A DNA stretch of 64,000 bases from Escherichia coli phage NG_S8. Under the pieces are notes generated by a model. That model saw nothing but the letters and a program-made list of their open reading frames with translations. It ran no database searches and had not been told where the DNA came from. Shown here piece by piece: positions 4,893 through 64,000 of the stretch; position 1 is the stretch's first letter; each line of letters begins with the position of its first letter. The position numbers were made by a program, and so were the translations under genes. The stretch lies in the sequence record LC788711.1; one strand, given 5' to 3'.

Positions 4893-7682
4893 GTGTTCTC
4901 AATCCTACAAGGTCACGCAGGATTTTCCAGAGATAAAGCCACTGGCATCTGGAAAGAGATCAAAGTGGAAGATTACACCTTTGCAAAGCGATTCTCTAAA
5001 GAGCATCCAGAAGGTAAACCAGCTTCCATGCCCTTCAAATTTGATGTACTTGAAGAACTTGACCCGCAAAACCTTGCTGAAATGTTACCTATCATGCGTC
5101 GTCTTACCAAAGACCCGCATATTGTAGCTATTCGGGGTAAGTGTCTAGCTCCAAAAGATAATGTGCGTCGTACCAGAGGAAACTTTAACGTATCCAATCC
5201 TAGTCATATTATTGCTATGGACGTGGATGGTATTGTAGATACTGGTGGCTATGACAAGTTTAATCTTGTTGGCATGGCACGTCATATTATTAAGATGTTG
5301 AATAGTATTAGTGAGGATATGTTTCCTCTTGATGCAGGGTTTATTGCCCATGCATCGTCTTCGGCTGGATTAAAACCAGGTATCCGAATGCACTTAATGC
5401 TAGAATCTAATGTCAAGGTAACGCAGGGACAGTTAAAGTTCTTATTTACATCTATCAATGATAGTAGTAAGCAAAAGTACGGCTTTGATATTGCTGACTT
5501 AGCTTATTATTCTTCTGTTCAGCTTCACTATTTCGCAGATCCCTTATTTGATGATGGTATAGTCGATCCGTTTAAAGCGGAGAATAAACCACGTCTTGTG
5601 TATGTTAAGGGTTCGAAGGTGAATCTACCTAATAACCTAGTTGACTTTGAAACAACTAGAGGTGAGTTTAAAGAAGAATTCTACTCCTTACTTGACCAAA
5701 TTAAAGGCAAGAAGGCTGCATCTGATAAAGTGGAAGAAACCATCAGCGAACTAGAAGAAGCTGAGGATGGGGTGTACCTGCGTATTATTCCAAAACTTTA
5801 CCACAGAGCGTTAGAAGATGGTGTTGACTTTACATGGTTAGAACGTGAGATTAAACCAGCTTTATCTGAATATATTGCAACTAAAGATAATAGTCGTAAT
5901 ATTCAAGATTACTTTAATAACGGTCGTAAGCAGGCTCTCAAAGCCTTTGTAAATAACTCCAAACGTGAGATTCCACCAAACTTAAAAGGTGTACCATTAA
6001 AACGTCTAGACACAGATTCTCCACCAGAAGTTCCATACCTGAAAATTAACATTGTACCACCAAAAGGACATTTAACATTTGTTAAGGCAAGTCTTGGTAC
6101 GGGTAAAACTACAGCAGTAACTAAGTGGCTAGATGCAGGTGTTCTTCCAGGAAACTTTATTGCAATCACAAATACTAGGGCACTTGTATCTTCTAACGCG
6201 AAGAAATTCGGTGCTGGTCAGTATGATAAGTCAGTTGATATGCTGAACTTCAAACGTGGTGCCATTGATCGTATGTCTTCAACTATTCACTCTATCCATA
6301 AGTTCAAGAGCTTTGTGGGTCAGATTGATACGATCTTTATTGATGAATGTGACGCAGTAATGAATGATCTGTTATTCGCTCCGGTTGTTAAAAACCGTCG
6401 TGAATGTATTCAGGTTCTTCGTGATATCCTTATTACTGCTAAAACTGTTATCTTATCCGATGGTGATATCAGTGCAGAAACGATTGAAGCCTATGGTTCT
6501 TTGATTGATTTTGATAAACCAGTCGCATTTTATAATCACCACCGTAAAATGCTGGCGAAAGCTCATGCTTATGAATTCCCTGATGAATCCAGTATTTGGG
6601 TTGCACTTCAAACATCTTTAGAGATGGGGGAGAAATCAATCCTAGTATCTGACTGTGGCCCGGATGAACTGAATGAGAAGGGAATGGCATTACGTCGTAA
6701 TACTGGTGCGTTAGTTAAAGAAATTCACTCAAACTCTACGTCTGATGTAGATATCCGACGTATTCTGGATTATACAACTAATGAGCTAATTGATCAACAG
6801 ATTGATTGTTTATTATGTAGTCCATCTGTAACGAGTGGTGTTGACTTTAACTATTTTGATAACGTATTCGTAATCACTAGAACCTCAAACCAAGCGCCAA
6901 ACATGCGTTTTCAAGCAATCAGGCGCGACCGTGGTGCTCAGAACATTTATTATTTTATTGATAAATCTACGAGTGGATTTTCTGCGGGTTCCGAGCAATA
7001 TAATATTGACGAAGGTTGGATTGAGTTAGCCCAACAACTGTACGCACGTCGTCGTGAGCTGGAATCTAGAAACTATACTAGTACTTTGCGTTATTATCTG
7101 CTTGATCAGGGTGCAACTATCGATATTTTCAGCGAAAGCTGGGGAACTATCGAAGGTGCAGGCAAAGAGTATACAGAAGAGCGAATCAAAGCTATTTTGC
7201 ACTCAACTCCTGAATATTGTGCACCACGTCATGCAGATGCCTATGAAGCCAAGTTACTTCTGGTTCGCTATTATCATCTGGATTCTATTAAAGATGTAAC
7301 AGTGGAACACGTTGAACAGTATATCAAGGATAAACCAAACGATAGAGCTGCATTCTTCCATAAGATGCACGACATGTTCTGGGAAGATATTAAAAAGTGT
7401 TCAAACGTAACAATCAAACCGTTTATCGAAGCTCTTAAGAATAAGAAGAAGGATTTCTTCCTTAAGACAGGTCAGAGCGCTAACCCAAAATATGCTCGTA
7501 TGTATCTTGGCATGATGGGTATCGGTAAAGATCTGGATACGGAAAAGATTGTGGACTGGTACAGAACTTACTGTAAGATCGAATGTATGCCGATTCCAGT
7601 TAAGTTTATGACAGATGAAGAACGTCAGATGCATGAGGAAGCTCTTGCTGAATTGGGGGCTAGAAATGACAGCGAAGAATAA
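4893..7682 (+). CDS. large replication-associated P-loop NTPase / helicase-like protein (putative origin-binding helicase)
   Basis: Walker A GTGKTT, Walker B FIDECD; start taken as GTG 4893 after AGGAG (first ATG at 4770 gives implausible N-terminus). Confidence 0.6.
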   Translation: MFSILQGHAGFSRDKATGIWKEIKVEDYTFAKRFSKEHPEGKPASMPFKFDVLEELDPQNLAEMLPIMRRLTKDPHIVAIRGKCLAPKDNVRRTRGNFNVSNPSHIIAMDVDGIVDTGGYDKFNLVGMARHIIKMLNSISEDMFPLDAGFIAHASSSAGLKPGIRMHLMLESNVKVTQGQLKFLFTSINDSSKQKYGFDIADLAYYSSVQLHYFADPLFDDGIVDPFKAENKPRLVYVKGSKVNLPNNLVDFETTRGEFKEEFYSLLDQIKGKKAASDKVEETISELEEAEDGVYLRIIPKLYHRALEDGVDFTWLEREIKPALSEYIATKDNSRNIQDYFNNGRKQALKAFVNNSKREIPPNLKGVPLKRLDTDSPPEVPYLKINIVPPKGHLTFVKASLGTGKTTAVTKWLDAGVLPGNFIAITNTRALVSSNAKKFGAGQYDKSVDMLNFKRGAIDRMSSTIHSIHKFKSFVGQIDTIFIDECDAVMNDLLFAPVVKNRRECIQVLRDILITAKTVILSDGDISAETIEAYGSLIDFDKPVAFYNHHRKMLAKAHAYEFPDESSIWVALQTSLEMGEKSILVSDCGPDELNEKGMALRRNTGALVKEIHSNSTSDVDIRRILDYTTNELIDQQIDCLLCSPSVTSGVDFNYFDNVFVITRTSNQAPNMRFQAIRRDRGAQNIYYFIDKSTSGFSAGSEQYNIDEGWIELAQQLYARRRELESRNYTSTLRYYLLDQGATIDIFSESWGTIEGAGKEYTEERIKAILHSTPEYCAPRHADAYEAKLLLVRYYHLDSIKDVTVEHVEQYIKDKPNDRAAFFHKMHDMFWEDIKKCSNVTIKPFIEALKNKKKDFFLKTGQSANPKYARMYLGMMGIGKDLDTEKIVDWYRTYCKIECMPIPVKFMTDEERQMHEEALAELGARNDSEE

Positions 7683-53618: not shown

Positions 53619-54353
53619 TTATGCAACTTTTAATTTATCAATGAATTGTTGCGGGCTGCAACTATATTCCGCGCGTTCTTCCTCGGTCATACCTTCCCAA
53701 CACATTTTTAAACGTTCGGCTAGGAATTGATAATCGTTATCATCATCAAGCGATTCATCAATAAAGGTTTCACCGATCAATGTTACGCCGATTGATAGGA
53801 TATCGTTAACGGCTTGAGCGTCCAGCGTTTTAAATCCAGCACTTGCCGCCGCTGATAATACACCTTTATGATCATCAATCATCATAAAATCAGCGTTAGG
53901 ATATAGCTGTTTAAACAGTTCAAAGTAATAAGACTTATATACAGCGTCTTTGCTGTGATATATTTCGCTAACCTTATCCGCTTCAAAGTATTTGTGCAGT
54001 GTATCGCGGGAAAATACGCGGATATTACTATTTCCGCGCCCTCGCAGCCCTTGTTTGCGTAAATAAAAGTAATCGCTTTTAGACATAAGGCGAGCGGTAC
54101 AAATAATGTTTAAAGTATTTGCATCATTCATACACTGGCGCATATATTCAACCAACGGCAATAAAGAATCCTGCATAATTAAATCATGTTTACAGGCTCC
54201 GCGTGAATACTTATTTAAATTTAAATTCCCGTTATCATCAAAGCAAGGCGCTACACGGTGGAAAGAATTAATGATAGTTCCGTCTAAGTCCCAAATCATA
54301 ACGCGGGAAATATGCGGGAAAGCGCGGGCAATATTCAAGGTTACTTGATTCAT
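53619..54353 (-). CDS. HAD-superfamily phosphatase (dmp-like 5'-deoxyribonucleotidase candidate, 244 aa)
   Basis: N-terminal MIWDLDGTIINSF (HAD motif I DxDGT); size matches T5 dmp. Confidence 0.6.
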   Translation of the reverse strand: MNQVTLNIARAFPHISRVMIWDLDGTIINSFHRVAPCFDDNGNLNLNKYSRGACKHDLIMQDSLLPLVEYMRQCMNDANTLNIICTARLMSKSDYFYLRKQGLRGRGNSNIRVFSRDTLHKYFEADKVSEIYHSKDAVYKSYYFELFKQLYPNADFMMIDDHKGVLSAAASAGFKTLDAQAVNDILSIGVTLIGETFIDESLDDDNDYQFLAERLKMCWEGMTEEERAEYSCSPQQFIDKLKVA

Positions 54354-54440
54354 TTGTTACATTCTCCATTTAAGGGATTTAGGTTAATTCAATCTTGCCA
54401 GCTAATTATATTGGATTAGCTGGCAATGTTCAATTAACTA

Positions 54441-54833
54441 TTAGTTAGTGAGGCCATACGCTAGCGCGTCACCGATAAAGCTAAGATCTTCACCATGTAC
54501 GCTAGAACGAATTCCCGCGCAAGTGTAAACCATTGCGCTAGCTTCTGGATTGCAGACCGGACACGGCTTAACAACTGCAAACGCTAGACCGGATTTAAGC
54601 GCATCAATAATAATTGTTTGCACTGTCAAAGTATCAGCGTAAACGCCTTTTGCTTTTGTATGGCTTGCCACTTTGCCGGTATCATAAGCAAAGGTAGTAA
54701 CCTGCAAAGCGTCGTTATAATTCAGCAAATCGAAATTAACTTGCCCCGCCTCGACGTGATAACGTTCGCCATTAGAATAAACTAGAACGATGGAAGAAGT
54801 AGCGCGGTCAAAAGGAATGTTTTGGTTTTTCAT
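54441..54833 (-). CDS. hypothetical protein (130 aa)
   Basis: ORF in pre-early-like block. Confidence 0.5.
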   Translation of the reverse strand: MKNQNIPFDRATSSIVLVYSNGERYHVEAGQVNFDLLNYNDALQVTTFAYDTGKVASHTKAKGVYADTLTVQTIIIDALKSGLAFAVVKPCPVCNPEASAMVYTCAGIRSSVHGEDLSFIGDALAYGLTN

Positions 54834-54865
54834 GTTTATGACTCCAGATTATTTAATTACGGGAT

Positions 54866-55144
54866 TTATTGAAAAAATACATTTAAAGATAAATCAGTTT
54901 TACGAAAATATGTTTCGTCGCCGTCTTTCCTTTCTTGATTAAGGTAATCGCCTGTCATTACCTGAATAGAATCTTTTCCGAAAAAGATCATATTTTCGCC
55001 AATATTACTATCCCATACGGCGTACATTCCCGCGTACATTCCACGGGTAACTAAATAAACGCAACTATCAAAAGACATTTCCGACCATGCAATATCTTCT
55101 AAACAATTGCTATCAGGGATAGATATATTAATTTTACTAGCCAT
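54866..55144 (-). CDS. hypothetical protein (92 aa)
   Basis: ORF in pre-early-like block. Confidence 0.45.
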   Translation of the reverse strand: MASKINISIPDSNCLEDIAWSEMSFDSCVYLVTRGMYAGMYAVWDSNIGENMIFFGKDSIQVMTGDYLNQERKDGDETYFRKTDLSLNVFFQ

Positions 55145-55196
55145 TTAATAAACCTTTTATTAATGGCGGTATATTTCAACCGCCGATTAAGTTTAA

Positions 55197-56864
55197 TTAT
55201 GCAAAGAATTTACCGTTTTTGAAATCAATCAAAGTACGTTGCCCGTTTGCATAGGTAATTAAATGCGTTTGCGTCCAGCTACTAGCGCCAACGTTGTAGC
55301 CCATATCAAGCGACCCCGCCACGCCAGCGGTATAAACGCCGCCGTATATGCTAGCCGTGTGAGTATGGCCAGTGTTGAGGCGTCCCAACTTTTTAAACTG
55401 CTTAGGATTGCCCCGACTGCCATTAATGCCATTGTGACCATGTACGCCGCATTCAATGCCAGCGATTTTAAACGACTGGTCAGTAGTCAGGAAAATAGCG
55501 TTAAATTCGCAACCTGCGACACTACGCAAGGCGTAATCTAGCACGTTAAAGGTATCATCCTTTTCAGCAATAGCGGCGTATATAGCAGCGTTTAGACGGT
55601 GATACAATTCCGCGTTTGCGGGATCGTCTTTAATGTTAGCGTTACGATCATCTAACCAGCGGGATAAAGCTAAATCATGGTTAGATTCAACAATGATTGT
55701 TTGAGAGAAATCACGTTCCATAGATTCTAATACGCGTCCAGTATCGATAAGATCATCAATAACTTTATCACGTCCGGCGGCGTATTGTTTCGCAAGGAAT
55801 ACACCACTAGCGCGGTTATGATGGTTACGCGATGTAAAATCATGCACGTCATGAATAAATTGATATTTCGGTTTAAGAATATCAAGCAAGCTGTTTTCAC
55901 TAGCCCATGATGCAACGGCGCATTCATCATCTAATTTTTCGGCGTGAATATCGCCATATTGCAAGCCTAGAACATGATCGGACGTTTCAAAACATCCGGT
56001 AGGCATAGCGCAAACATTCAAATCATAGAACATTCCGCTTTCATCCATTGTTTCAAGCTGGCGGCAATAAAATTCCCCGTCGTCGTCAAATTCTACCAGC
56101 AAAGCGCCGAAATTATGCAGAGCCTCAGCTTTTTGACCTGCTTTCTGCTGAATGTAGTTTTTAAGCGTAGCCGTTCCGGTTGAATACATACGGCGCACTA
56201 CTTCACCTTTTAACGCTGGTACACTTTCAGCGGTAATTTTTGCCGCACCAATTGCCAGACCTTCAATATTTAAAGCCGTGGCGGTTTCTGCGAATCCTGT
56301 AAGCGGATAATCTGCCGTTGGTAATACGTTAATTTCAGACATGAAAGCAAAGCGGCGATTATTCAGGAAAACATTTTTATCACAGATATATTTATCAAAT
56401 GCGGGATCGTATTTAATTTTTTCTTTGCTGCCGTCGCCGTTCTGGAATCCATTTTTATTGTAAATGAATTTACTAACCAGCAATTCACCGCCGATATATT
56501 CAGCGAATTTTTCCAGACTTGCTAAAAAGTTTTTATGCGGGAAAGTATTATTTTGAATCGACGTTAGAATAAAACGGCGACCGGATTTAACTTCCCATTG
56601 TTCAATGGTACTAGAAACAATTCCCGCCGCTTCTGGGCGATCATCATTTTTAATCGCCTTTTCAGCTTTTGCCGCTTTCGGTTTAGCTGGCTTATTTGCT
56701 TCCAACCAGTCGCAAATTGCGGTTGAATGTTTCGTTGTATCGTAAACAGCTTTTGATATATCGTCGCAAACTTCCAGCTTAGTAGCGCGTAAACGTTTAC
56801 CGTAGAAATTAAAATCAGCGGCAAGTTTAACGATCTGGGCTTGTTTTTCTGCGGAAATATTCAT
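55197..56864 (-). CDS. A1-like pre-early protein, calcineurin-like metallophosphoesterase/nuclease (555 aa)
   Basis: Motifs GDIHAE, GHNG, GHTHT; size about that of T5 A1 (556 aa); upstream neighbour is A2-sized ORF. Confidence 0.65.
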   Translation of the reverse strand: MNISAEKQAQIVKLAADFNFYGKRLRATKLEVCDDISKAVYDTTKHSTAICDWLEANKPAKPKAAKAEKAIKNDDRPEAAGIVSSTIEQWEVKSGRRFILTSIQNNTFPHKNFLASLEKFAEYIGGELLVSKFIYNKNGFQNGDGSKEKIKYDPAFDKYICDKNVFLNNRRFAFMSEINVLPTADYPLTGFAETATALNIEGLAIGAAKITAESVPALKGEVVRRMYSTGTATLKNYIQQKAGQKAEALHNFGALLVEFDDDGEFYCRQLETMDESGMFYDLNVCAMPTGCFETSDHVLGLQYGDIHAEKLDDECAVASWASENSLLDILKPKYQFIHDVHDFTSRNHHNRASGVFLAKQYAAGRDKVIDDLIDTGRVLESMERDFSQTIIVESNHDLALSRWLDDRNANIKDDPANAELYHRLNAAIYAAIAEKDDTFNVLDYALRSVAGCEFNAIFLTTDQSFKIAGIECGVHGHNGINGSRGNPKQFKKLGRLNTGHTHTASIYGGVYTAGVAGSLDMGYNVGASSWTQTHLITYANGQRTLIDFKNGKFFA

Positions 56865-56973
56865 AACTAATTCAACTCCTATAAAGGGATAAATATTAAT
56901 ACTGGCAATATTGCCAAATATAACGCCTTGCCTGAAGTGAGGACAATTTAAAAGGCGTTATAATTTGCAACAT

Positions 56974-57198
56974 TTAATTAAGCGGCATTAAACTAGAACA
57001 AAAGCCAAATACAATGCCAATTGTAAGAAAGATAATTGACAGATATTTTTGAATGTTCGCGTTTTTGCGGAAATTATTTGCGGCGTAAACGTTATTAATT
57101 CCAATTATTGCCAGAATTGACCTCGTATAATTCAGAATAAAAGCGGCGGCAATAATAAATAAACCTAAAATAAACGCTTCGTTAGGATAAAAGATCAA
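56974..57198 (-). CDS. small two-TM membrane protein (74 aa)
   Basis: TTG start after AAAGGAG; two hydrophobic segments. Confidence 0.45.
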   Translation of the reverse strand: MIFYPNEAFILGLFIIAAAFILNYTRSILAIIGINNVYAANNFRKNANIQKYLSIIFLTIGIVFGFCSSLMPLN

Positions 57199-57248
57199 GA
57201 TTATTCTCCTTTAAGGGTTAGCGGGGAATATTCCCCGCTAGTTAAAAT

Positions 57249-57665
57249 TTATTCACCTGCGGCCTGTTTTACTTCCTCCGCTACGCCTAACAATTGCGCT
57301 ACAGCTTCCAGCGTTTCAAGTTTTGCACTTTCCAGACTTGCCAGATCGTCGGCGTCTTTAATAACGCCAGCGTCAATGGCATGTTTAGCCATAACGCGCA
57401 CATAGTGAGCTTTACGGACACTAGACCCGCCGCCAACTTTACGCGGTTTATCGCTTTTCTGGTATGCTTTTGCGCTTGTCAGTTTAGAACGTACAGAAAC
57501 AGGACTTGCAGCGCCAACGGCGGCGGCAATTTCTTTCAGGCCGTCACTGTTAGCAAATTCAATTCCGCTTTTAGCGACCATTTCAGAATACATAGAAACA
57601 GCTTTTTCGGTGTTTTCTTCGTTCCAAGAGAATTTTGCGGTTTTTTCGGTTTTAACGTTAGACAT
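57249..57665 (-). CDS. A2-like pre-early DNA-binding protein candidate (138 aa)
   Basis: Size and position upstream of A1-like gene; RBS GGAG. Confidence 0.5.
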   Translation of the reverse strand: MSNVKTEKTAKFSWNEENTEKAVSMYSEMVAKSGIEFANSDGLKEIAAAVGAASPVSVRSKLTSAKAYQKSDKPRKVGGGSSVRKAHYVRVMAKHAIDAGVIKDADDLASLESAKLETLEAVAQLLGVAEEVKQAAGE

Positions 57666-57951
57666 AATTTAATACTCCATTCAATTATTAATTAAGGGAT
57701 TATGATTAACTAAATGTTAATCGCTATATATTCTATTAGCTAGAATATATAACGGAAACATTTTATTTTTATTTCCAGTTTCAAGCGGTTTATTAATTCC
57801 CGAATATATTTATATTCTCACCTTATCCGGCTTGCCAGAGAATTAATAAGGCAACATTGTATTTATACGCTGTTTATTATTCCGTTCACGCTAGGAATAT
57901 TTCGAGTTATCTTTATTGCCTAACTAAGCATGATATGTAAGGCGCATTAAT

Positions 57952-58203
57952 TTATGCGATAGCTTGCCATTTATCATCTTTCTGAATGATTTTTACAACG
58001 TCGCCAGATTTAACACGGACGTTATAAATAGGCTTGCCGTGGTTACTGCGTTCCGTTTCCGCATAGACCGCTTCAATCTTATCAAAGGGATCAAGCGCCG
58101 CACCTTTAATACGTTCGGCTTTTCCGGTTAATTCATCCGTTTTAGTTACAAAAGGAATGAATACAGATTGACCTACTTTCGGCGCGGTAATAACGTTTTG
58201 CAT
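57952..58203 (-). CDS. hypothetical protein (83 aa)
   Basis: ORF in pre-early-like block. Confidence 0.5.
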   Translation of the reverse strand: MQNVITAPKVGQSVFIPFVTKTDELTGKAERIKGAALDPFDKIEAVYAETERSNHGKPIYNVRVKSGDVVKIIQKDDKWQAIA

Positions 58204-58334
58204 TTTTAATACTCCGGTTTATTGGGGATTATTCCACAATAGCGCCTCGATACTTTGAAACGCTATTAGATTATAATCCGCTAGGAGTTAGCCTAAACAT
58301 TACCGTTACCCAAATTTTTAAAGAGCAGTTACTA

Positions 58335-58360
58335 CAGGGAACATCTTAAAACCTATCGGC
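58335..58360. repeat. left copy of 26-bp inverted repeat (CAGGGAACATCTTAAAACCTATCGGC)
   Basis: Reverse complement matches 58620-58646 at 24/26 positions. Confidence 0.8.
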
Positions 58361-58367
58361 TAGCGTG

Positions 58368-58586
58368 TTAAGCGTTTTTTAAACTTTTTTCGATTTGATG
58401 GGAGTTATATAAATCAATCATTATATTACGCCACACCATTTCCAGACCTTGCTGCTTGCCTTTCTTGTATTGCTTGAATCGGTATTTTACCGATCGTTGC
58501 GCTACTGTCAACAAATTTTTTGTTCTGCTATCTAATGCACTAGCAGGTTTCGCACTAATCACTAAAGCGTTTTTTGATTTGATCAT
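58368..58586 (-). CDS. small basic protein (72 aa), flanked by 26-bp inverted repeats
   Basis: ORF rich in K/R/Q; TATAAT-like element within 20 bp upstream on minus strand. Confidence 0.5.
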   Translation of the reverse strand: MIKSKNALVISAKPASALDSRTKNLLTVAQRSVKYRFKQYKKGKQQGLEMVWRNIMIDLYNSHQIEKSLKNA

Positions 58587-58619
58587 TATCGTCGATTCCT
58601 TATATTATATAAGTTTACC

Positions 58620-58646
58620 GCCGATAGGCTTTAAGATGTTCCCTAG
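58620..58646. repeat. right copy of 26-bp inverted repeat (GCCGATAGGCTTTAAGATGTTCCCTAG)
   Basis: Partner of 58335-58360; adjacent 12-bp direct repeat TTTTTAAAGAGC also at 58315-58326. Confidence 0.8.
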
Positions 58647-59318
58647 TTTTTAAAGAGCGCGGCGGTAAACTTCCCCGCCGTGTAGTTCGTCATTGCCGCC
58701 CTACGTGATAAATAATAGGAGAATACCGAGAAGGGCGCAACCTTATTTTTGTAAAGAAACGTAAAGACAAACGCCACTGCACCACGTCCAGCGGCGCACT
58801 AAATTTAATGAAACGGGCGCGCGAATAACACCAAAACAACCATTTTAGCAAGTAATTTTTTCATTTATATTTGCTTTGCCCTACTTGACAAAATCTAAAA
58901 TCCTCGTGGTGAGGTTTTCTCGGTGTACCCCTTATGATTGCCTATCTTTTCCTTTGAGGCGCTTAGAATGCGTTACAGAGCGTTTTAGACCCTGTTAATA
59001 ACTTATACAAAAAGCAAAAATGAAATTTAATGAGTTATCCACTTGATTTTTCAAAAAAGTATTTTCTGCTATTATTTTTCATTGACAAATAAGTTTAGAC
59101 GTGCATTGATTGGTTAGCAGACTAACAATCGCTAGGATGATAATCACGCTGGTGGATTGTAACAGCTGAAACAGTTAGCAGACTATTAATACTCTAAAAA
59201 CCTATTAGCCAACTAACTATTTCATATTATATAATATACTTATAAATTAAAGAGAAATAATAACTATAAGAAACTATCGGCTAAGTGAGAACCACTATCA
59301 TTTAGGTTATTCACAAAG

Positions 59319-59376
59319 TTATCCACAGCACAAAATAACTTGACGCAATAGGCGACGTTTTGGCGACTTATCCACA
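59319..59376. promoter_or_regulatory. pair of perfect DnaA boxes (TTATCCACA at 59319-59327 and 59368-59376) plus near-matches
   Basis: Exact 9-mers; near-matches TTATTCACA 59308-59316 and TTATCCACT 59033-59041. Confidence 0.6.
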
Positions 59377-59396
59377 GACTTATATACAGGTTATCC

Positions 59397-59416
59397 TACT
59401 GTATAAATATACAGGG
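59397..59416. promoter_or_regulatory. LexA (SOS) box-like palindrome TACTGTATAAATATACAGGG
   Basis: CTGT-N8-ACAG with AT-rich spacer, close to E. coli consensus TACTGTATATATATACAGTA. Confidence 0.55.
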
Positions 59417-59663
59417 TAAATAGGTAGCAGTAACAACCGCAATCAAATTTAAGCGGCCTAGAACGCATTCTAAGCGATTTTCTCACTGCTACCCTTATTA
59501 TAATAAAGCCTTGTGTACGCTTACAGAGAGCTAGAAATAGAAAACGCGCGGTTATCATAAAAACAGGCAGTAAGCAAGAAATAAAAAACCTTTTCTTTTT
59601 TCTTGCCCCTAGCGAACAATTATCTATATCATTCACTCACCGATTAACGAGGGAGACAAAGAA

Positions 59664-60683
59664 ATGTCTACTGTAAGAATTGCAGTACCAGCAAACGCCA
59701 CTATTATTAAGGGTAGTTTGCGCAACCTGCTAGATGGTAGTAGTGCGGCAAGCGTACAACATACCGCTACTATTGTAGAAAAGATTCACGATGAAATTTT
59801 AGACAATAATGATACTCATTATTCAGTTGATGATTTCACGCTATTACTAGACCAGACAAGGGCGCTAGTAATTTTCAACCGTGATTATCACATTTTCCGT
59901 AATAGTCGGGGAACTGATATTGATTTTATCATTGTTGGTTATAGTGAGTCTCATAGTGGTTACATTGCGCGATTATATAACGTGCAAGAAAAAGAGCAGG
60001 TAACAGCAACAAAAGTAAATAATATCAGACTGGATAGTGTCGGATCGTTATTAAATAGTATCTGGCGTGAATTATCATCCAGTTATAAAGGTGCTGATAG
60101 TGACGCAATCGAAACAACTGGCGTATTGTGTTTTGAACGCGGTAGCGGTAACATGTTGATTCCTAACGATTATTTAGAGTATGGGAATGAATCAAACGTT
60201 GCAAACGCTGGATTTACACTTTTCCCGCTTGACAATGTAACAAAACAGGCTGTAAACTCTCAAACTTCAAGCGCAATTGCGCAAACTACTGAAAATAAAG
60301 GAAATAACACTATGTCTAAAGTAACCGCTATCGTTGCCGCTAATAAATCCGCCGCCGCTACCGCTGCAAAACTGGAAGCGGGTAAAGTAGCACTAACTCA
60401 GCTTACAAAAGTAGCGGCTAAAGCCCTGCCTTCTGGTATGGCTGGCATGTTCGCTAAACAGTATTTAGATACTCCGGTCGGGCGCGTTGTTGTTGCCAAC
60501 TTGTTAAATCTGGCAATCGAACAATACGCACCGAATAACCAGAAAGCGCGAATTGTTGCTAAAGCCGCAATGGATGCCGCAATGCTGGAAGTGGTACAGA
60601 GTTTCAATATTTCTGAAATGATCGACAAGGCAATCGAGGGAATCAACATTGATGCTTTGACTGCTAATATTTCAGAAGAGTAA
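59664..60683 (+). CDS. hypothetical protein (339 aa) with Ala-rich helical C-terminal half
   Basis: RBS GAGGGAG; first gene of plus-strand block after 1-kb non-coding region. Confidence 0.65.
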   Translation: MSTVRIAVPANATIIKGSLRNLLDGSSAASVQHTATIVEKIHDEILDNNDTHYSVDDFTLLLDQTRALVIFNRDYHIFRNSRGTDIDFIIVGYSESHSGYIARLYNVQEKEQVTATKVNNIRLDSVGSLLNSIWRELSSSYKGADSDAIETTGVLCFERGSGNMLIPNDYLEYGNESNVANAGFTLFPLDNVTKQAVNSQTSSAIAQTTENKGNNTMSKVTAIVAANKSAAATAAKLEAGKVALTQLTKVAAKALPSGMAGMFAKQYLDTPVGRVVVANLLNLAIEQYAPNNQKARIVAKAAMDAAMLEVVQSFNISEMIDKAIEGINIDALTANISEE

Positions 60684-60741
60684 TAATAACAAGCGGGAAT
60701 TAATTTTCCCGTTTTCTTCCCTTTTAGTTAGGAGACTAATT

Positions 60742-61233
60742 ATGTTTGGTAGCAGAAATTATGGCAACCCTATTGAAGCACGATCCCTTAATCATGACGC
60801 AATTGTATTCACTCATGCGTCTACCGGTTATTGTGGATCAGATGGGAATGATTATCATTTCGTTCCCGCTGGTGACGATATTGATGATCTATGTAATGAG
60901 GCAGGTTATGAAAATGCTTGCTCTTATGGTCTAGAAGTTATTGAAGTAGACGACGGCGAATATGAGGATAATGATAATATTGAATGCTCCGCTTATCATT
61001 ATCAGTTAAGTGAATCAGGTTGTTATATTGGCGGCGGCGATCCTATTAATTCCATCACTGAAATAATTATTGAAAATGGTGGCGTTTCGCTGAATGGTAA
61101 CAAGGCGTTACTATATGCAAACCGATTAAAGCAACTTGTATATATTCCTGATGGGAAAGAATGGGAAGAATACAACGTTCTAATTGCAGAATTGAAAAGC
61201 TGTTTCGGCGTGGAAGTGGTAGAAATAGCCTAA
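60742..61233 (+). CDS. strongly acidic protein (163 aa), candidate DNA mimic
   Basis: RBS TAGGAGACT; about 32 Asp+Glu against about 7 Lys+Arg. Confidence 0.65.
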   Translation: MFGSRNYGNPIEARSLNHDAIVFTHASTGYCGSDGNDYHFVPAGDDIDDLCNEAGYENACSYGLEVIEVDDGEYEDNDNIECSAYHYQLSESGCYIGGGDPINSITEIIIENGGVSLNGNKALLYANRLKQLVYIPDGKEWEEYNVLIAELKSCFGVEVVEIA

Positions 61234-61341
61234 TGTAAAGTTTTGTAAAGGTCGCCTATTATGGCGGCCTTTTTTGTTATAATGCCTTTACACCGAAACG
61301 GTGGATTGAAAATTTTCCCTGATTTCTAGGAGGCGTTAAAA

Positions 61342-61572
61342 ATGGTTGCTTTCTCTTCTTCTGACTCTCTTTTCACTGGTAAAGGTTGGGTATCTAATCG
61401 CTGGATTATTGATCAGATGGTTTCTGAATTTGGGATTGGTAAAACTTATGTTACCATTCAGGCGCTTTATGATAATGATCAGATTGATCAGCAAACCGCC
61501 GGATTTTTGCTGGACACGTTGAAAGCAGAACATTGCACTAAAAAGCAAGCGGCAAAAATCGTTTTAATGTAA
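61342..61572 (+). CDS. hypothetical protein (76 aa)
   Basis: RBS CTAGGAGG. Confidence 0.55.
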   Translation: MVAFSSSDSLFTGKGWVSNRWIIDQMVSEFGIGKTYVTIQALYDNDQIDQQTAGFLLDTLKAEHCTKKQAAKIVLM

Positions 61573-61619
61573 TTATTAAAAGGGGGTATATTATCCCCTA
61601 AGTTCTAGGAGCTAATAAA

Positions 61620-61769
61620 ATGGTTATTTTTCGATCTATTCTGGCTAGTATCTTGGGCGCTATTTTATCGCTGTTTGTAATAGCTTTCGGCGTTCACGTG
61701 GTTATTATTGGAGCAGGTATCGCGGGGTTTTCTTACTTGTTAGGCTGTATGACTGGTAAAGGGGAATAA
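61620..61769 (+). CDS. small two-TM membrane protein (49 aa)
   Basis: RBS CTAGGAGC; hydrophobic segments ILASILGAILSLFVIAF and VVIIGAGIAGFSYLL. Confidence 0.5.
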   Translation: MVIFRSILASILGAILSLFVIAFGVHVVIIGAGIAGFSYLLGCMTGKGE

Positions 61770-61771
61770 AA

Positions 61772-61984
61772 ATGTTAAAGAATGTTTCCCTTGCCCGTTC
61801 CAAAGGTTTTAAGCTGGTGGATGTTAACACGTTCGAGCGTCCAGATTGTAAAATCGAATATGTAGCACGCAACAAAAACGCTTTCCGTGTTACAGAAAAG
61901 AAATTTGACAAGCGGGGCAATTTGGTAGCCGAAACGATTAAACACTTTGCCACCTTTTACGCTGCATTTCGTGGGGTATTATGA
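61772..61984 (+). CDS. hypothetical protein (70 aa)
   Basis: RBS AAAGGGGAA. Confidence 0.5.
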   Translation: MLKNVSLARSKGFKLVDVNTFERPDCKIEYVARNKNAFRVTEKKFDKRGNLVAETIKHFATFYAAFRGVL

Positions 61985-62082
61985 GATCCTTATATATTGC
62001 TCTAGCGTTTGCTACCGTTGGCGTTATTTGCTCATTCGCTGCATTTGTTTTAAAAATGTACCTGATATTTTCCCAGCTTTAG
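61981..62082 (+). CDS. small hydrophobic protein (33 aa)
   Basis: ATGA overlap with upstream stop; single TM-like segment. Confidence 0.3.
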   Translation: MRSLYIALAFATVGVICSFAAFVLKMYLIFSQL

Positions 62083-62093
62083 GAGCTTGACAA

Positions 62094-62438
62094 ATGGTAA
62101 TTTATGAGGGCAATCGCTTTATTACTAATTGCCGTCCGGCATTATTAGCAAACTATTTAAATCAGCTTTCACCAGTTTATAAAGGCGTAGTTAATATCTA
62201 TGAGGGCAAAGCACATTATAAAATTTCTGCCGTTGTCGCCCGTGAACTAGCGTTTCAATTTTTAACTTTTGGGTCTTGTGACGTTCAGGTTATGGGGGAA
62301 GCGTTAATAGCGGAAAATGAAAATGAATTTATTGACATTTTCCGCAAAGTATGTACGGAGCGCCTGATTATGAAAGGCGCATATATTCAATCAACCGCTG
62401 AAAGTATTGAAACAGCGTTTCGAAAGGTGGCGCAATGA
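62094..62438 (+). CDS. hypothetical protein (114 aa)
   Basis: RBS TTAGGAGC. Confidence 0.55.
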   Translation: MVIYEGNRFITNCRPALLANYLNQLSPVYKGVVNIYEGKAHYKISAVVARELAFQFLTFGSCDVQVMGEALIAENENEFIDIFRKVCTERLIMKGAYIQSTAESIETAFRKVAQ

Positions 62439-62635
62439 CTAAAGATGAAGCACTAGAAAAAATGAAACAAGGTTTCAAAGTTAGTAATCAATATTTTACT
62501 AGCGATGAATTTTTGTACATGAAAGAAAACGGCGTGATCATGTCAGAAGATGGTTACAATTTTAATGATTGGTTTTTCAATATTCGCAAGGGGGAGGAAT
62601 GGAAGCTAGACGGTTGGAGCGTTTACCGTGAATAG
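62435..62635 (+). CDS. hypothetical protein (66 aa)
   Basis: ATGA overlap with upstream gene. Confidence 0.5.
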   Translation: MTKDEALEKMKQGFKVSNQYFTSDEFLYMKENGVIMSEDGYNFNDWFFNIRKGEEWKLDGWSVYRE

Positions 62636-62761
62636 CTGGTGGCGAAAAACACAAAGCCATAAATCTAATAATACCGCTGGGAAACATTCCCAGCGTTTAC
62701 GATTTGGTAATGGCTTTACAATGATATTGATAATCATTCTCATTCTAGGAGCGATGGCGTT

Positions 62762-62956
62762 ATGAGTGATAAAATTGTTGTAACTAAAACTACTGTTACC
62801 GTTGATACTTTCTTTGTGCCTGATACGCTGGAAAATCGGCAAGCGGTGGAGCGTGGCGATTATGATAAAGTGATTTATGATAACGATGGTTACTACCAAC
62901 ATTTGGTAGACTCCTACGGCGAAAGCGAAAAGATCACACATCGACTACCAGACTAA
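62762..62956 (+). CDS. hypothetical acidic protein (64 aa)
   Basis: RBS CTAGGAGC; followed by hairpin plus T-run. Confidence 0.5.
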   Translation: MSDKIVVTKTTVTVDTFFVPDTLENRQAVERGDYDKVIYDNDGYYQHLVDSYGESEKITHRLPD

Positions 62957-62962
62957 TAATAA

Positions 62963-62990
62963 CGGGGCCGATAGTTGCGCCCCGCCTTTT
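62963..62990 (+). terminator. terminator-like hairpin after last gene of plus-strand pre-early block
   Basis: Stem CGGGGC/GCCCCG then CCTTTT. Confidence 0.45.
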
Positions 62991-63102
62991 CTGCCTGCAA
63001 ACAAATTTCCCCTTATTAAAGTACCTCCTCCAAAAATAAACGCGTTAGGATGCGTTACAGAGCGTTTTAGAGCTATATTAGAGTTATTCACTACGTAGGA
63101 AT

Positions 63103-63122
63103 ACTGTATAAATATACAGTAG
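63103..63122. promoter_or_regulatory. LexA (SOS) box-like palindrome TACTGTATAAATATACAGTA
   Basis: Matches consensus at 18 of 20 positions, both CTGT/ACAG half-sites perfect. Confidence 0.6.
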
Positions 63123-63202
63123 AATAACCTGTTGATAAGTCTGTTGAAAACGCCTCAAAACCGCTAGGATTTTGTCAAATCAAATCGTGCTGTTAATAAA
63201 CC

Positions 63203-63211
63203 TGTGGATAA
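63203..63211. promoter_or_regulatory. DnaA box (TGTGGATAA, reverse orientation)
   Basis: Exact reverse complement of TTATCCACA. Confidence 0.5.
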
Positions 63212-63232
63212 CTTAAATAACAGTGTTTCTCA

Positions 63233-63388
63233 CTTCGCTTTCTAAATGCGACTCATTCTCATTATGCGACTCATTCGTACTCAACTCTGTAAAGGATAAC
63301 CATTCTCATTCCGCTTTCTAAATGTGAATCATTATCATTCGCATTCAACTTCTCAAATGCGAATCAATCTCATTATCATTCGCATTTC
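63233..63388. repeat. three degenerate ~36-40-bp direct repeats with internal palindrome AAATGCGAAT...ATTCGCATTT
   Basis: Units starting near 63233, 63311 and 63349. Confidence 0.7.
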
Positions 63389-63424
63389 GGCAGGCAGGGC
63401 ATTTTCATTTTGCCCTGCGCTTTT

Positions 63425-63992
63425 GTGCAAATCCGACATTTGCCCCCACGGATTACGTGCCAGCGTGCATGTGCGAATCCGACAATTTTTGGTAGTGTGC
63501 AAATCCGATGGGAAATATTTTTTATATGTGCGAATCCGACAATGAATTTTCCTAAAAACTCCAGCAATCAGCAACTGCGATGCAATCCAGCTGGATTTAC
63601 TAGAGTATGTGCAAATCCGACATGAGTTTATTTGTGCAAAACCGACAAGATTTTTGTGACTTCGATGAGAGGGTGTGTGATTGTGTGGGTTTGGGGAGAA
63701 GTGCGAATCCGACGAGGTTTTTGGGAGGAACTATGGAGGGTGCAGCTGTAGTGGTGCTTCAGCACCGGTTTGCTGCGTTTTTGGGGATAATGTGGGATGT
63801 TTTGGCTAGAATTGAGATTAGTGGAGATAAAGCGAAATTTTATTAGCAAAATGGGGCAAAATCGCTTGACAAGTGAAAATTCCTGTGGATCTAAAAAACT
63901 CAGGCAAATATGGGCCTTCGGCCCGAAATAATGCTGCTATTTTCAGTGTTCCTAAAAACTTTGGAGACTCCTATCAATGTGCAAATCCGACC
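63425..63992. repeat. array of eight direct 14-bp repeats, consensus GTGCRAATCCGACA, irregular spacing
   Basis: Copies at 63425, 63471, 63497, 63528, 63609, 63634, 63701, 63979, all same orientation. Confidence 0.85.
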
Positions 63993-64000
63993 ATAAATTT

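What the first reader, a model, noticed from the sequence alone, without database searches (positions are those of the whole stretch)
59664..62956. Plus-strand pre-early gene block with a recurring TCTAGGAG ribosome-binding context
Nine small genes, transcribed divergently from the A1/A2-like genes, begin after the 1-kb DnaA/LexA non-coding region. Five of them are preceded by the same extended Shine-Dalgarno context (T)CTAGGAG(C/G), which is not used in the replication module. This suggests a co-evolved, possibly horizontally acquired cassette. None has a recognisable enzymatic motif, and two are tiny membrane proteins.
Basis: seen in the sequence. Interest (0 to 1): 0.45.

Follow-up and report, generated by a model that had tools for sequence, protein, structure and literature searches.

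The report
T5-like phage pre-early accessory gene arm
This is the already described, variable right-hand half of the DNA that a T5-like Salmonella phage injects first. Its repeated ribosome-binding motif is real but specific to this lineage, and one 66-residue protein in it folds like a known phage anti-immunity sponge.

Summary
The window is a T5-like phage (Epseptimavirus; 97.8% identical to phage NBSal002). Region 59664-62956 is the rightward pre-early operon of the terminal repeat (first-step-transfer DNA). It lies between two 148-nt inverted repeats that carry DnaA and LexA boxes.

Six ORFs are orthologues of T5.011-T5.015 and T5.017. In T5 this whole arm is deletable, 011 and 013 are toxic, and 015 is an Ung-dependent AP-site nickase.

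- TCTAGGAG is exact at three starts and TTAGGAG at two.
- TAGGAG sits in the SD window of 5 of 10 block genes against 2 of 72 elsewhere.
- It is not conserved at the same genes in T5. One copy's TAG is the stop codon of the upstream ORF, and one lies inside an unannotated conserved 45-aa ORF.

The "horizontally acquired, co-evolved cassette" reading is not supported. GC equals the rest of the genome, the backbone is syntenic with T5, and each gene has its own distribution. Only single genes (O2 allele, O6, O8) come and go, at the translation-start seams.

Overall the block is a known kind of locus, of modest interest.

The parts
59280..59427 (.). Left arm of the 148-nt inverted repeat that flanks the block. 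It carries DnaA boxes and the LexA box at 59397-59414, and corresponds to Davison's IRC-spacer-IRD (Repeat Region 2).
   Evidence: I1, D7, I6; described for T5-like phages in the text read.
59603..59632 (+). Sigma-70 promoter-like site (TTGCCC, 18 nt, TATCAT) upstream of O1. It is homologous to the promoter annotated upstream of T5.011.
   Evidence: scan; in the alignment with T5, EPS7 and Shivani the -10 and the leader are nearly invariant; the T5 promoter feature lies at 6411-6489.
59664..60683 (+). O1, 339 aa, orthologue of T5.011 (47% identity). It belongs to DUF7566 / phrog_4263. SD is GAGGGAG, without the motif.
   Evidence: T5 011 is toxic and disorganises the nucleoid. The AF2 N-terminal domain is confident but gave no informative fold match.
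60691..60714 (+). Terminator-like hairpin after O1.
60728..60734 (+). Motif copy 1: TTAGGAG, the SD of O2 (lacks the C).
60742..61233 (+). O2, 163 aa, acidic (pI 4.05; 30 D+E against 7 K+R), phrog_6741. It is absent from T5. This allele is rare: only 6 records reach 90% identity or more, and the others are about 50% identical.
61247..61283 (+). Strong terminator (10-bp stem plus T6) followed directly by an extended -10 element, TGtTATAAT (61275-61283). This module is nearly invariant in T5, EPS7, Shivani and Spc35, whichever gene precedes it.
   Evidence: T5 annotates the terminator. The promoter reading is my inference from the sequence.
61325..61332 (+). Motif copy 2: TCTAGGAG(G), the SD of O3.
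   Evidence: In T5, Spc35, SP3, IME178, EscoHU1 and one IMG/VR contig the same site reads TTTTGGAGG.
61342..61572 (+). O3, 76 aa, orthologue of T5.012 (91% identity), phrog_5145, function unknown.
61581..61599 (+). Hairpin GGGGGUAUAUUAUCCCC between O3 and O4, with no T-run after it.
61604..61611 (+). Motif copy 3: TCTAGGAG(C), the SD of O4.
   Evidence: T5-type phages have CTAGGGGAG here, and IME178 and Gostya9 have CTAGGAG.
61620..61769 (+). O4, 49 aa, strongly hydrophobic (GRAVY 1.69) small membrane protein. Its T5 orthologue T5.013 (62% identity) is annotated with two transmembrane domains. phrog_5607.
   Evidence: T5.013 annotation. T5 013 causes lysis when over-expressed.
61772..61984 (+). 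O5, 70 aa, basic (pI 10.1), orthologue of locus_tag T5.014 (91% identity). It is translationally coupled, starting 2 nt after the O4 stop, with SD AAGGGG.
   Evidence: RefSeq and PHROG label it the Ung-dependent nuclease, probably by a numbering slip.
61981..62082 (+). O6, 33 aa, single-TM peptide. Its ATG overlaps the O5 stop, and its own TAG stop is the TAG of motif copy 4.
   Evidence: (74 records).
62079..62085 (+). Motif copy 4: TTAGGAG(C), the SD of O7. It overlaps the O6 stop codon.
   Evidence: Phages with other ORFs or none in this slot have other SDs.
62094..62438 (+). O7, 114 aa, orthologue of locus_tag T5.015 (88% identity). It is most likely the Ung-dependent AP-site nickase.
   Evidence: (UniRef name). 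Function from PMC8201957.
62435..62635 (+). O8, 66 aa, with a Tad2/AcrIIA7-like (DUF2829-like) fold. Its ATG overlaps the O7 stop. It is absent from T5.
62628..62765 (+). Ox, an unlisted 45-aa ORF with a GTG start, a basic N-terminus and a hydrophobic C-terminus. It overlaps the O8 stop by 8 nt and the O9 start by ATGA. It contains a conserved hairpin (62675-62695) and motif copy 5.
62744..62751 (+). Motif copy 5: TCTAGGAG(C), 10 nt upstream of the O9 ATG. It lies inside Ox, in codons Ile-Leu-Gly-Ala.
62762..62956 (+). O9, 64 aa, acidic, orthologue of T5.017 (80% identity), phrog_6973.
62963..62984 (+). G+C-rich hairpin followed by CCUUUUCU, the likely end of the operon.
   Evidence: last fold. 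T5 annotates a terminator at the equivalent place.
63091..63238 (.). Right arm of the inverted repeat, carrying a second LexA box at 63102-63119 and a DnaA box. It corresponds to IRD'-spacer-IRC' at the start of the injection-stop region.

Best explanation
The region is the rightward pre-early operon of the first-step-transfer (terminal repeat) DNA of an Epseptimavirus.

How it is transcribed (inferred):
- Host RNA polymerase starts at a conserved sigma-70 promoter upstream of O1 during the injection pause.
- Transcription is punctuated by a terminator after O1.
- A conserved terminator plus extended -10 module follows O2.
- A terminator follows O9.

What it encodes: small, individually dispensable host-takeover and probable anti-defence effectors.
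- O1: a T5.011-type toxic protein.
- O4: a T5.013-type membrane toxin.
- O7: the T5.015-type Ung-dependent AP-site nickase.
- O8: a Tad2-like protein.
- Several products of unknown function.

What the recurring T(C)TAGGAG is: simply the strong AGGAG Shine-Dalgarno of the cistrons that must start translation on their own.
- These are the cistrons after a hairpin, a terminator or a non-overlapping stop. The tightly coupled cistrons (O5, O6, O8, Ox) have weak SDs.
- The shared flanks (ATTTTCCC...TT(C)TAGGAG...AAATGGT) reflect related translation-initiation modules within this arm, plus two local constraints.
- Constraint one: the TAG of the O7 copy is the stop codon of O6.
- Constraint two: the O9 copy lies inside the coding sequence of Ox. 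It was brought next to O9 by a deletion of about 110 nt.

These look-alike start regions are the seams at which single genes are lost or swapped.

Shown: identity, synteny, motif counts, the deletion junctions and the O8 fold. Inferred: the transcription map, the functions transferred from T5, and the role of the modules in shuffling.
For: Identity and setting:
- 97.8% identity to NBSal002, and 533 T5-like records match.
- annotations of EPS7, T5, NBSal002 and Seafire place the block in the terminal repeat.
- the flanking inverted repeats match published T5 features.
- orthology to T5.011-015 and T5.017.
- the promoter and the terminator/promoter module are conserved.

Function (from the papers read):
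- in T5, hegG to 017 can be deleted; 011, 013 and 015 are toxic.
- 015 toxicity, and its Ung dependence.

Motif:
- enrichment, and the split between stand-alone and coupled cistrons.
- the extended context.
- the motif is absent at T5 orthologues, yet CTAGG(G)(G)AG appears before different genes in different phages.
- CTAGG-type SDs in 24/95 right-arm genes against 0/72 left-arm genes over 12 loci.

Seams:
- in Shivani the O3 leader is joined to the O4 coding sequence at the shared (A)AAATGGTT.
- the window joins the end of Ox to O9 at GGCGTTA..ATGAG, whereas EPS7 keeps about 110 nt between them.
- the O5-O7 slot holds four unrelated tiny ORFs, or none.
Against: - The enrichment was noticed first and tested afterwards.
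- My gene starts are heuristic.
- The 12 loci are related, so the counts are not independent.
- Only two recombination junctions were examined. Both crossovers lie at the start codon and its first bases, not in the TCTAGGAG itself, so a role of the motif proper in shuffling is not shown.
- Why C/T-T-A precedes AGGAG is not explained by pairing with the 16S 3' end (my reasoning from the known anti-SD sequence).
- No expression data exist for this phage.
- The internal extended -10 promoter is a sequence inference.
Confidence: 0.75

Rival explanations
1. The nine genes are one co-evolved cassette acquired horizontally as a unit, and the shared SD context is the signature of its foreign origin.
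For: - The motif is concentrated in the block.
- Codon usage of the block differs from early and late genes: RSCU r = 0.74, outside the null range of 0.79-0.97.
- O8 has 333 distant relatives in unrelated enterobacterial phages.
- The O2 allele is only about 50% identical to the common one.
Against: - GC and GC3 are the same as the rest of the genome.
- The universally conserved dmp-A1-A2 arm deviates even more in codon usage (r = 0.55).
- Gene order is syntenic with T5.
- Each gene has its own distribution, from 74 to 495 records.
- The motif varies between alleles of the same leader: TCTAGGAGG against TTTTGGAGG.
Confidence: 0.08
2. CTAGG-type Shine-Dalgarno contexts are a cis-acting signal. 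Examples would be a site for an endoribonuclease (as T4 RegB cuts GGAG in early-gene SDs) or for a factor that shuts off pre-early translation.
For: - CTAGG(G)AG recurs before different right-arm genes in 12 T5-like phages: 24/95 against 0/72 left-arm genes.
- Hairpins lie just upstream of several copies.
- The mechanism of pre-early shut-off is unknown, according to the papers read.
Against: - The motif is absent from the left arm, which is shut off too.
- T5 itself has one copy only.
- The same gene carries or lacks the motif in close relatives.
- Two copies are explained by overlapping coding sequence.
- There is no Rfam match.
Confidence: 0.05
3. The recurrence is chance plus ordinary selection for AGGAG. 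Nothing is shared beyond the SD core.
For: - Over the whole window CTAGGAG and TAGGAG are at chance level.
- Only three copies are exact.
- The test was made after the pattern had been seen.
Against: - Among AGGAG-type SDs, T precedes 5/5 in the block against 2/13 elsewhere (p = 0.0025).
- The extended context occurs at 3 sites, all in the block, against 0.48 expected.
- The same bias is seen in the right arms of 12 phages.
Confidence: 0.15

Closest known systems
Phage T5 first-step-transfer DNA, rightward pre-early genes T5.011-T5.017 (between Repeat Regions 2 and 3)
   Same: - Position in the terminal repeat.
- Divergent orientation to dmp-A1-A2.
- Flanking inverted repeats with DnaA boxes.
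- Homologous promoter and terminator/promoter module.
- Orthologues of 011, 012, 013, 014, 015 and 017 in the same order.
   Different: - It lacks T5.016.
- It has O2, O6, O8 and Ox, which T5 lacks.
- O1 is only 47% identical to T5.011.
- The SD contexts differ: T5 has one CTAGG-type SD, the window three to five.
Tad2 / DUF2829 family of phage immune-signal sponges (SPO1 Tad2, ModTad2) and AcrIIA7
   Same: - Foldseek ranks SPO1 Tad2 first.
- There are weak sequence matches to PF11195 and to 8SME.
- It is a small phage protein expressed very early.
   Different: - It is 66 aa against 86-104 aa in the matched chains (SPO1 Tad2 is 89 aa).
- It scores below the Pfam gathering threshold (17.8 against 25 bits).
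- The broader family profile loses the SPO1 Tad2 hit.
- Of the pocket residues, W25 aligns with an invariant Phe, N26 aligns with Thr, and the C-terminal ones could not be aligned.
- Oligomer state and ligand are unknown.
Promoter-early stem-loop (PeSL) cassettes of T4-type phages and 'moron' units of lambdoid phages (from my own knowledge, not tested here)
   Same: Short, similar regulatory segments (hairpin or terminator, promoter, SD) bound small early accessory genes. They coincide with the points where genes are gained or lost.
   Different: - Here the shared segments are much shorter.
- The two junctions examined lie at the start codon.
- No case of gain by this route was shown.
T4 RegB-targeted GGAG Shine-Dalgarno sequences (from my own knowledge)
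   Same: A particular SD flavour is over-represented in one temporal class of genes.
   Different: - No nuclease is known or found.
- The motif is not shared by the other pre-early arm.
- It is not conserved at orthologues.

Membership tests
T5-type FST right-arm pre-early operon | Lies in the long terminal repeat, between the IRC-spacer-IRD and IRD'-spacer-IRC' inverted repeats that carry DnaA boxes. | tested here: met
   148-nt inverted repeat, arms 59280-59427 and 63091-63238; relatives annotate the region as terminal repeat; published description.
T5-type FST right-arm pre-early operon | Transcribed divergently from the dmp-A1-A2 operon, from a sigma-70 promoter upstream of the 011 gene. 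| tested here: met
   Orientation. Promoter homology to the annotated T5 promoter. Activity was not measured.
T5-type FST right-arm pre-early operon | Orthologues of T5.011-T5.017 in the same order. | tested here: met
   011 (47% identity), 012 (91%), 013 (62%), 014 (91%), 015 (88%) and 017 (80%). T5.016 is absent.
T5-type FST right-arm pre-early operon | Expressed before second-step transfer. | not testable with these tools
   Shown for T5 and Bas33 in the literature, not for this phage.
T5.015 Ung-dependent AP-site nickase | Full-length close sequence relative of the protein with locus_tag T5.015 (114 aa). | tested here: met
   O7 is 87.7% identical over 114/114 residues. UniRef names this cluster 'DNA-(apurinic or apyrimidinic site) endonuclease'.
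T5.015 Ung-dependent AP-site nickase | Binds host Ung and nicks abasic DNA. | not testable with these tools
   Biochemistry from PMC8201957 only. Which T5 ORF the paper's '015' is could not be read from the text held; I inferred it from the locus-tag style and from gp013 having two TM domains.
Tad2 / DUF2829 sponge family | Match to Pfam PF11195 above the gathering score. | tested here: not met
   O8 scores 17.8 bits against a cut-off of 25 (E = 0.005). 13 of 60 family members reach E <= 0.01, the best at 1.5e-5.
Tad2 / DUF2829 sponge family | Fold: N-terminal helix packed on a small antiparallel sheet with short helices in the loops. | tested here: met
   [not shown]
Tad2 / DUF2829 sponge family | Ligand-pocket residues (SPO1 Tad2 W25, N26, W73, D79 and others). 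| tested here: inconclusive
   In the phmmer alignment W25 pairs with F21, which is invariant in the O8 family, and N26 pairs with T22. The C-terminal pocket residues fall outside the alignment.
Tad2 / DUF2829 sponge family | Homo-oligomer that sequesters gcADPR, His-ADPR or cyclic nucleotides and blocks Thoeris or Pycsar. | not testable with these tools
   Only a monomer could be modelled.
Horizontally acquired cassette | Base composition differs from the host genome of the element. | tested here: not met
   GC 0.40 against 0.38-0.44 elsewhere. GC3 0.34 against 0.30-0.36.
Horizontally acquired cassette | Present or absent as one unit among relatives. | tested here: not met
   Record counts range from 74 (O6) to 495 (O1). 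Single-gene differences are seen in 12 loci.
Regulatory SD motif (RegB-like target) | Conserved at orthologous sites and shared by the co-regulated gene class. | tested here: not met
   T5 orthologues lack it. No left-arm pre-early gene has a CTAGG-type SD (0/72).

The most novel reading that the evidence does not exclude
O8 (62435-62635) is a natural, miniaturised (66-aa) Tad2-like sponge. It is carried in the first-injected DNA of about one in eight T5-like phages. It would be made during the injection pause to mop up a nucleotide immune signal (Thoeris, Pycsar or a related system) before the rest of the genome enters. It would also stand for a large unannotated family: 580 cluster representatives, about 65 aa each, in many enterobacterial phages.
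Probability: 0.35. Interest if true: 0.5.

Novelty: already known. Interest (0 to 1): 0.27.

Why it matters
The block itself adds little. The T5 pre-early right arm has been mapped, compared across relatives, deleted, and tested gene by gene for toxicity.

Three by-products are useful:
- A testable anti-defence candidate (O8) sits in the DNA that meets host immunity first. Researchers have inserted a Tad2 sponge artificially near A1 in T5 to defeat Pycsar, so a natural equivalent would be informative.
- RefSeq/PHROG and UniProt disagree on which ORF is the Ung-dependent nickase. This will propagate errors through hundreds of phage annotations.
- A conserved small ORF (Ox) and a hypervariable slot of tiny membrane peptides are missing from several of the annotations examined.

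The look-alike translation-start modules give a concrete, small-scale picture of how accessory genes are lost or swapped in this arm.

Tried and rejected

2. O2 as a DNA mimic. This stays open.

3. O5 and O7 against PDB sequences: no hits. NCBIfam: nothing useful for any ORF.

4. CTAG avoidance, or Dcm/Vsr-driven origin of CTAGG. CTAG is not depleted, and CTAGG is at expectation (42 observed, 37.5 expected). CCWGG is only mildly low. Rejected.

5. 'Pre-early genes are host-adapted because phage tRNAs are not yet present.'
- The relative NBSal002 has 28 tRNA genes in its early region, including Arg-TCT and Lys-CTT.
- Pre-early genes use AGA and AAG less.
- However, only the left arm is closer to E. 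coli usage (r = 0.53 against a null of 0.25 +/- 0.125). The block is not (r = 0.30).
- So this does not explain the block.

6. The search for related loci in IMG/VR with O1 gave only two loci, so the comparison rests on 12 loci plus record counts.

7. Supplementary files of PMC8201957, and Davison 2015 (PMC4743489), are not held.

8. Rfam: no match in 58000-64000.

Full report
**Where we are**

The window is a T5-like phage of the genus Epseptimavirus.
- Region 58600-63200 is 97.8% identical to phage NBSal002 and 89% identical to EPS7. In all, 533 phage records match it.
- The window runs from early/replication genes (+ strand, 1-26 kb), through late genes (- strand, 26-52 kb), to dmp, A1 and A2 (- strand, 53.6-57.7 kb).
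- Relatives annotate the last stretch as the long terminal repeat, that is, the first-step-transfer (FST) DNA.
- The finding is the + strand arm of that repeat.
- A 148-nt inverted repeat brackets it: 59280-59427 and 63091-63238, 72% complementary. Each arm holds a perfect LexA box (TACTGTATAAATATACAG) and DnaA boxes.
- These arms are the IRC-spacer-IRD and IRD'-spacer-IRC' elements described for T5-like phages. [quoted passage not shown]
- Downstream, seven copies of TGTGCRAATCCGACA (63423-63994) belong to the injection-stop repeat region.

**The genes**

All nine ORFs are present as listed.

| ORF | Coordinates | Size | T5 counterpart (aa identity) | Family or property |
|---|---|---|---|---|
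| O1 | 59664-60683 | 339 aa | T5.011 (47%) | DUF7566 |
| O2 | 60742-61233 | 163 aa | none | acidic, pI 4.05 |
| O3 | 61342-61572 | 76 aa | T5.012 (91%) | phrog_5145 |
| O4 | 61620-61769 | 49 aa | T5.013 (62%) | hydrophobic membrane protein |
| O5 | 61772-61984 | 70 aa | locus_tag T5.014 (91%) | basic, pI 10.1 |
| O6 | 61981-62082 | 33 aa | none | single TM |
| O7 | 62094-62438 | 114 aa | locus_tag T5.015 (88%) | phrog_4379 |
| O8 | 62435-62635 | 66 aa | none | Tad2-like (see below) |
| O9 | 62762-62956 | 64 aa | T5.017 (80%) | phrog_6973 |

T5.016 is missing from the window.

A tenth ORF, Ox (62628-62765, 45 aa, GTG start), was overlooked.
- It is found in 227 phage records.
- It starts with ATG in phages that lack O8.
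- Its differences from relatives are mostly synonymous: EPS7 4 synonymous and 0 non-synonymous; EscoHU1 7 and 2; changes by codon position 1, 1 and 8.

**What is known about the T5 counterparts**
- Ectopic expression of 011, 013 and 015 is toxic. The phenotypes are nucleoid disorganisation, lysis, and Ung-dependent nicking of AP sites, respectively.
- A T5 mutant lacking hegG to 017 is viable but gives smaller plaques.

**The motif**

Exact TCTAGGAG precedes O3, O4 and O9. TTAGGAG precedes O2 and O7.

With heuristic gene calls for the whole window:
- TAGGAG lies in the SD window of 5/10 block genes and 2/72 others, namely A1 and one late gene (p = 1.7e-4).
- CTAGGAG lies there in 3/10 against 0/72.
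- Among AGGAG-type SDs, a T precedes in 5/5 against 2/13.
- The similarity extends upstream as ATTTTCCC-N-TT(C)TAGGAG. There are three such sites, all in the block, against 0.48 expected.
- It also extends downstream: O3, O4 and O7 all begin AAATGGT, encoding Met-Val.

The five motif-bearing genes are those that start after a gap, and four of the five leaders carry a hairpin or terminator upstream (O2, O3, O4, O9). O5, O6, O8 and Ox abut or overlap the previous stop and have weak SDs.

Two copies have a local explanation:
- The TAG before O7 is the stop codon of O6.
- The copy before O9 lies inside Ox, in the codons for Ile-Leu-Gly-Ala.

Composition does not explain the pattern. CTAG is not depleted in this genome, and CTAGG is at expectation.

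**Comparison across relatives**

Twelve loci were compared: T5, EPS7, NBSal002, Seafire, EscoHU1, IME178, Shivani, SP3, Spc35, Gostya9 and two IMG/VR contigs.

The motif is not conserved at orthologous genes:
- T5.012 has TTTTGGAGG.
- T5.013 has CTAGGGGAG.
- T5.017 has ACGGGGCG.
- The O3 leader exists as two alleles in an otherwise almost invariant terminator-promoter module.

Yet CTAGG(G)(G)AG turns up before different genes in different phages:
- O5 in EscoHU1.
- O7 in EPS7.
- O9 in Spc35 and one IMG/VR contig.

Over the 12 loci, 24/95 right-arm genes and 0/72 left-arm genes have a CTAGG-type SD. The loci are related, so this count is descriptive only.

I therefore read the motif as a flavour of strong SD that circulates within this arm, not as a conserved signal.

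**Seams**

Two junctions show how genes disappear.
- In Shivani, O3 is missing. The complete O3 leader, including TTCTAGGAGGCGTTAAA, is joined to the O4 coding sequence at the shared (A)AAATGGTT.
- In the window and NBSal002, about 110 nt that EPS7 keeps between Ox and O9 (a T5.016 remnant) are missing. The join lies in GGCGTTA..ATGAG, which occurs at both ends. This deletion is what places TCTAGGAGC in front of O9.

The slot between O5 and O7 holds four unrelated tiny ORFs, or none, in different phages.

Gene-by-gene record counts differ widely:

| Protein | Phage records with a tblastn match | Note |
|---|---|---|
| A1 | 1134 | about 531 at 60% identity or more |
| O1 | 495 | |
| O7 | 437 | |
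| O5 | 436 | |
| O3 | 372 | |
| O2 | 325 | only 6 at 90% identity or more |
| O9 | 293 | |
| Ox | 227 | |
| O6 | 74 | |
| O8 | 403 | about 70 are T5-like phages |

**Was the block acquired horizontally?**
- GC and GC3 match the rest of the genome.
- Codon usage of the block is unlike that of early and late genes: RSCU r = 0.74, against a null for equally small gene sets of 0.92 +/- 0.03 (minimum 0.79).
- But the conserved dmp-A1-A2 arm deviates more (r = 0.55). The deviation therefore belongs to the FST DNA as a class.
- I tested whether this reflects translation before the phage's own tRNAs arrive. NBSal002 carries 28 tRNA genes in its early region.
- The left arm is closer to E. coli usage than early and late genes are (r = 0.53 against 0.25 +/- 0.125). 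The block is not (r = 0.30).
- So the idea may hold for A1/A2 but does not explain this block.

**O8**

This is the one product for which I obtained new information.
- Pfam gives a sub-threshold match to Tad2-like PF11195 (E = 0.005).
- The best PDB sequence hit is SPO1 Tad2 (E = 0.02).
- A full HMMER scan finds 580 cluster representatives, mostly about 65 aa. Of 60 aligned members, 13 touch PF11195.
- The AF2 model is very confident (pLDDT 96.7).
- Foldseek ranks SPO1 Tad2 first and second, though weakly (E = 0.17, probability 0.89, TM 0.58).

The fold assignment is solid, but family membership in the functional sense is not.
- O8 is about 20-40 residues shorter than the matched chains.
- Only one pocket position (W25 to an invariant Phe) can be aligned.
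- Oligomer state and ligand cannot be tested here.

Tad2 proteins are now known to bind several signals: gcADPR, His-ADPR, cCMP/cUMP and N7-cADPR. A Tad2 placed near A1 lets T5 escape Pycsar. That makes a natural pre-early copy plausible.

**Dead ends**
- O1 gave no informative fold match.
- O2, O5 and O7 have no solved relatives by sequence.
- There is no Rfam family in 58000-64000.

**Verdict**
- The locus is already known in kind and, nearly base for base, in public genomes.
- The RBS observation is real but lineage-specific, and is best explained by shared start-region modules plus overlapping coding constraints.
- The cassette-transfer interpretation fails.
- Interest is modest. It is raised slightly by the O8 lead, the annotation conflict over the Ung-dependent nickase, and the unannotated small ORFs.

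Noticed in passing
window 61772-61984 (O5) and 62094-62438 (O7): There is an annotation conflict. RefSeq NC_005859 and PHROG phrog_4227 put 'endonuclease nicking abasic sites generated by host Ung' on the 70-aa protein (locus_tag T5.014, called ORF015 in another T5 record). UniRef puts 'AP endonuclease' on the 114-aa protein (locus_tag T5.015). The locus-tag style of the original paper, and gp013 being the two-TM protein, point to the 114-aa protein. If so, the RefSeq/PHROG label is probably shifted by one gene and has already been copied into other phage records (e.g. EPS7, L6jm, fuchur, S133).
   Followed up: partly
window 62628-62765: An ORF of 45 aa (Ox) with a basic N-terminus and a hydrophobic C-terminus, left unannotated in NBSal002, EPS7 and Shivani. 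It is conserved in 227 phage records with mostly synonymous differences. It contains a hairpin (62675-62695) whose inner segment is inverted, not mutated, in one relative, so the stem is kept.
   Followed up: partly
window 61985-62093 and the same slot in loci L001-L012: The gap between O5 and O7 is a hypervariable slot. It holds a 33-aa TM peptide here, two unrelated 41-46-aa hydrophobic peptides in other phages, a soluble 47-aa ORF in Shivani, and nothing in T5 and IME178.
   Followed up: partly
window 53619-58586 and 59664-62956 against 1-52000: Both pre-early arms have codon usage clearly different from early and late genes, at equal GC3. Examples: AGA RSCU 0.29 against 1.23, and CGC 2.2 against 0.56. 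The dmp-A1-A2 arm is closer to E. coli usage, whereas the right arm is not. The close relative NBSal002 encodes 28 tRNAs in DNA that enters only at second-step transfer. I found no description of this in the searchable library.
   Followed up: partly
window 61231-61300: A terminator directly followed by TGtTATAAT (an extended -10) is almost invariant in T5, EPS7, Shivani and Spc35. The flanking coding sequences, by contrast, differ or are absent. It looks like a conserved internal restart point of the operon.
   Followed up: partly
window 59664-60683 (O1): Many UniRef entries name O1 homologues 'DNA N-6-adenine methyltransferase'. No methyltransferase domain is detected (only DUF7566), so the name appears to be a propagated error.
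   Followed up: partly
window 60742-61233 (O2): O2 is strongly acidic (30 D+E against 7 K+R, pI 4.05) and absent from T5. Its allele here is only about 50% identical to the common one. A DNA-mimic or anti-restriction role is conceivable but was not tested.
   Followed up: no
window 58336-58360 / 58620-58644 and 58963-58989 / 63045-63071: Further repeats lie around the block. One is a 25-nt inverted repeat (96% complementary) flanking the 72-aa ORF at 58368-58586. The other is a 27-nt direct repeat (TTAGRATGCGTTACAGAGCGTTTTAGA) on either side of the block, outside the large inverted repeat.
   Followed up: no
window 63423-63994: Seven copies of an 18-nt direct repeat (ATGTGCGAATCCGACAAT and variants) occur at irregular spacing. 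They probably correspond to the DRD repeats of the T5 injection-stop region.
   Followed up: no
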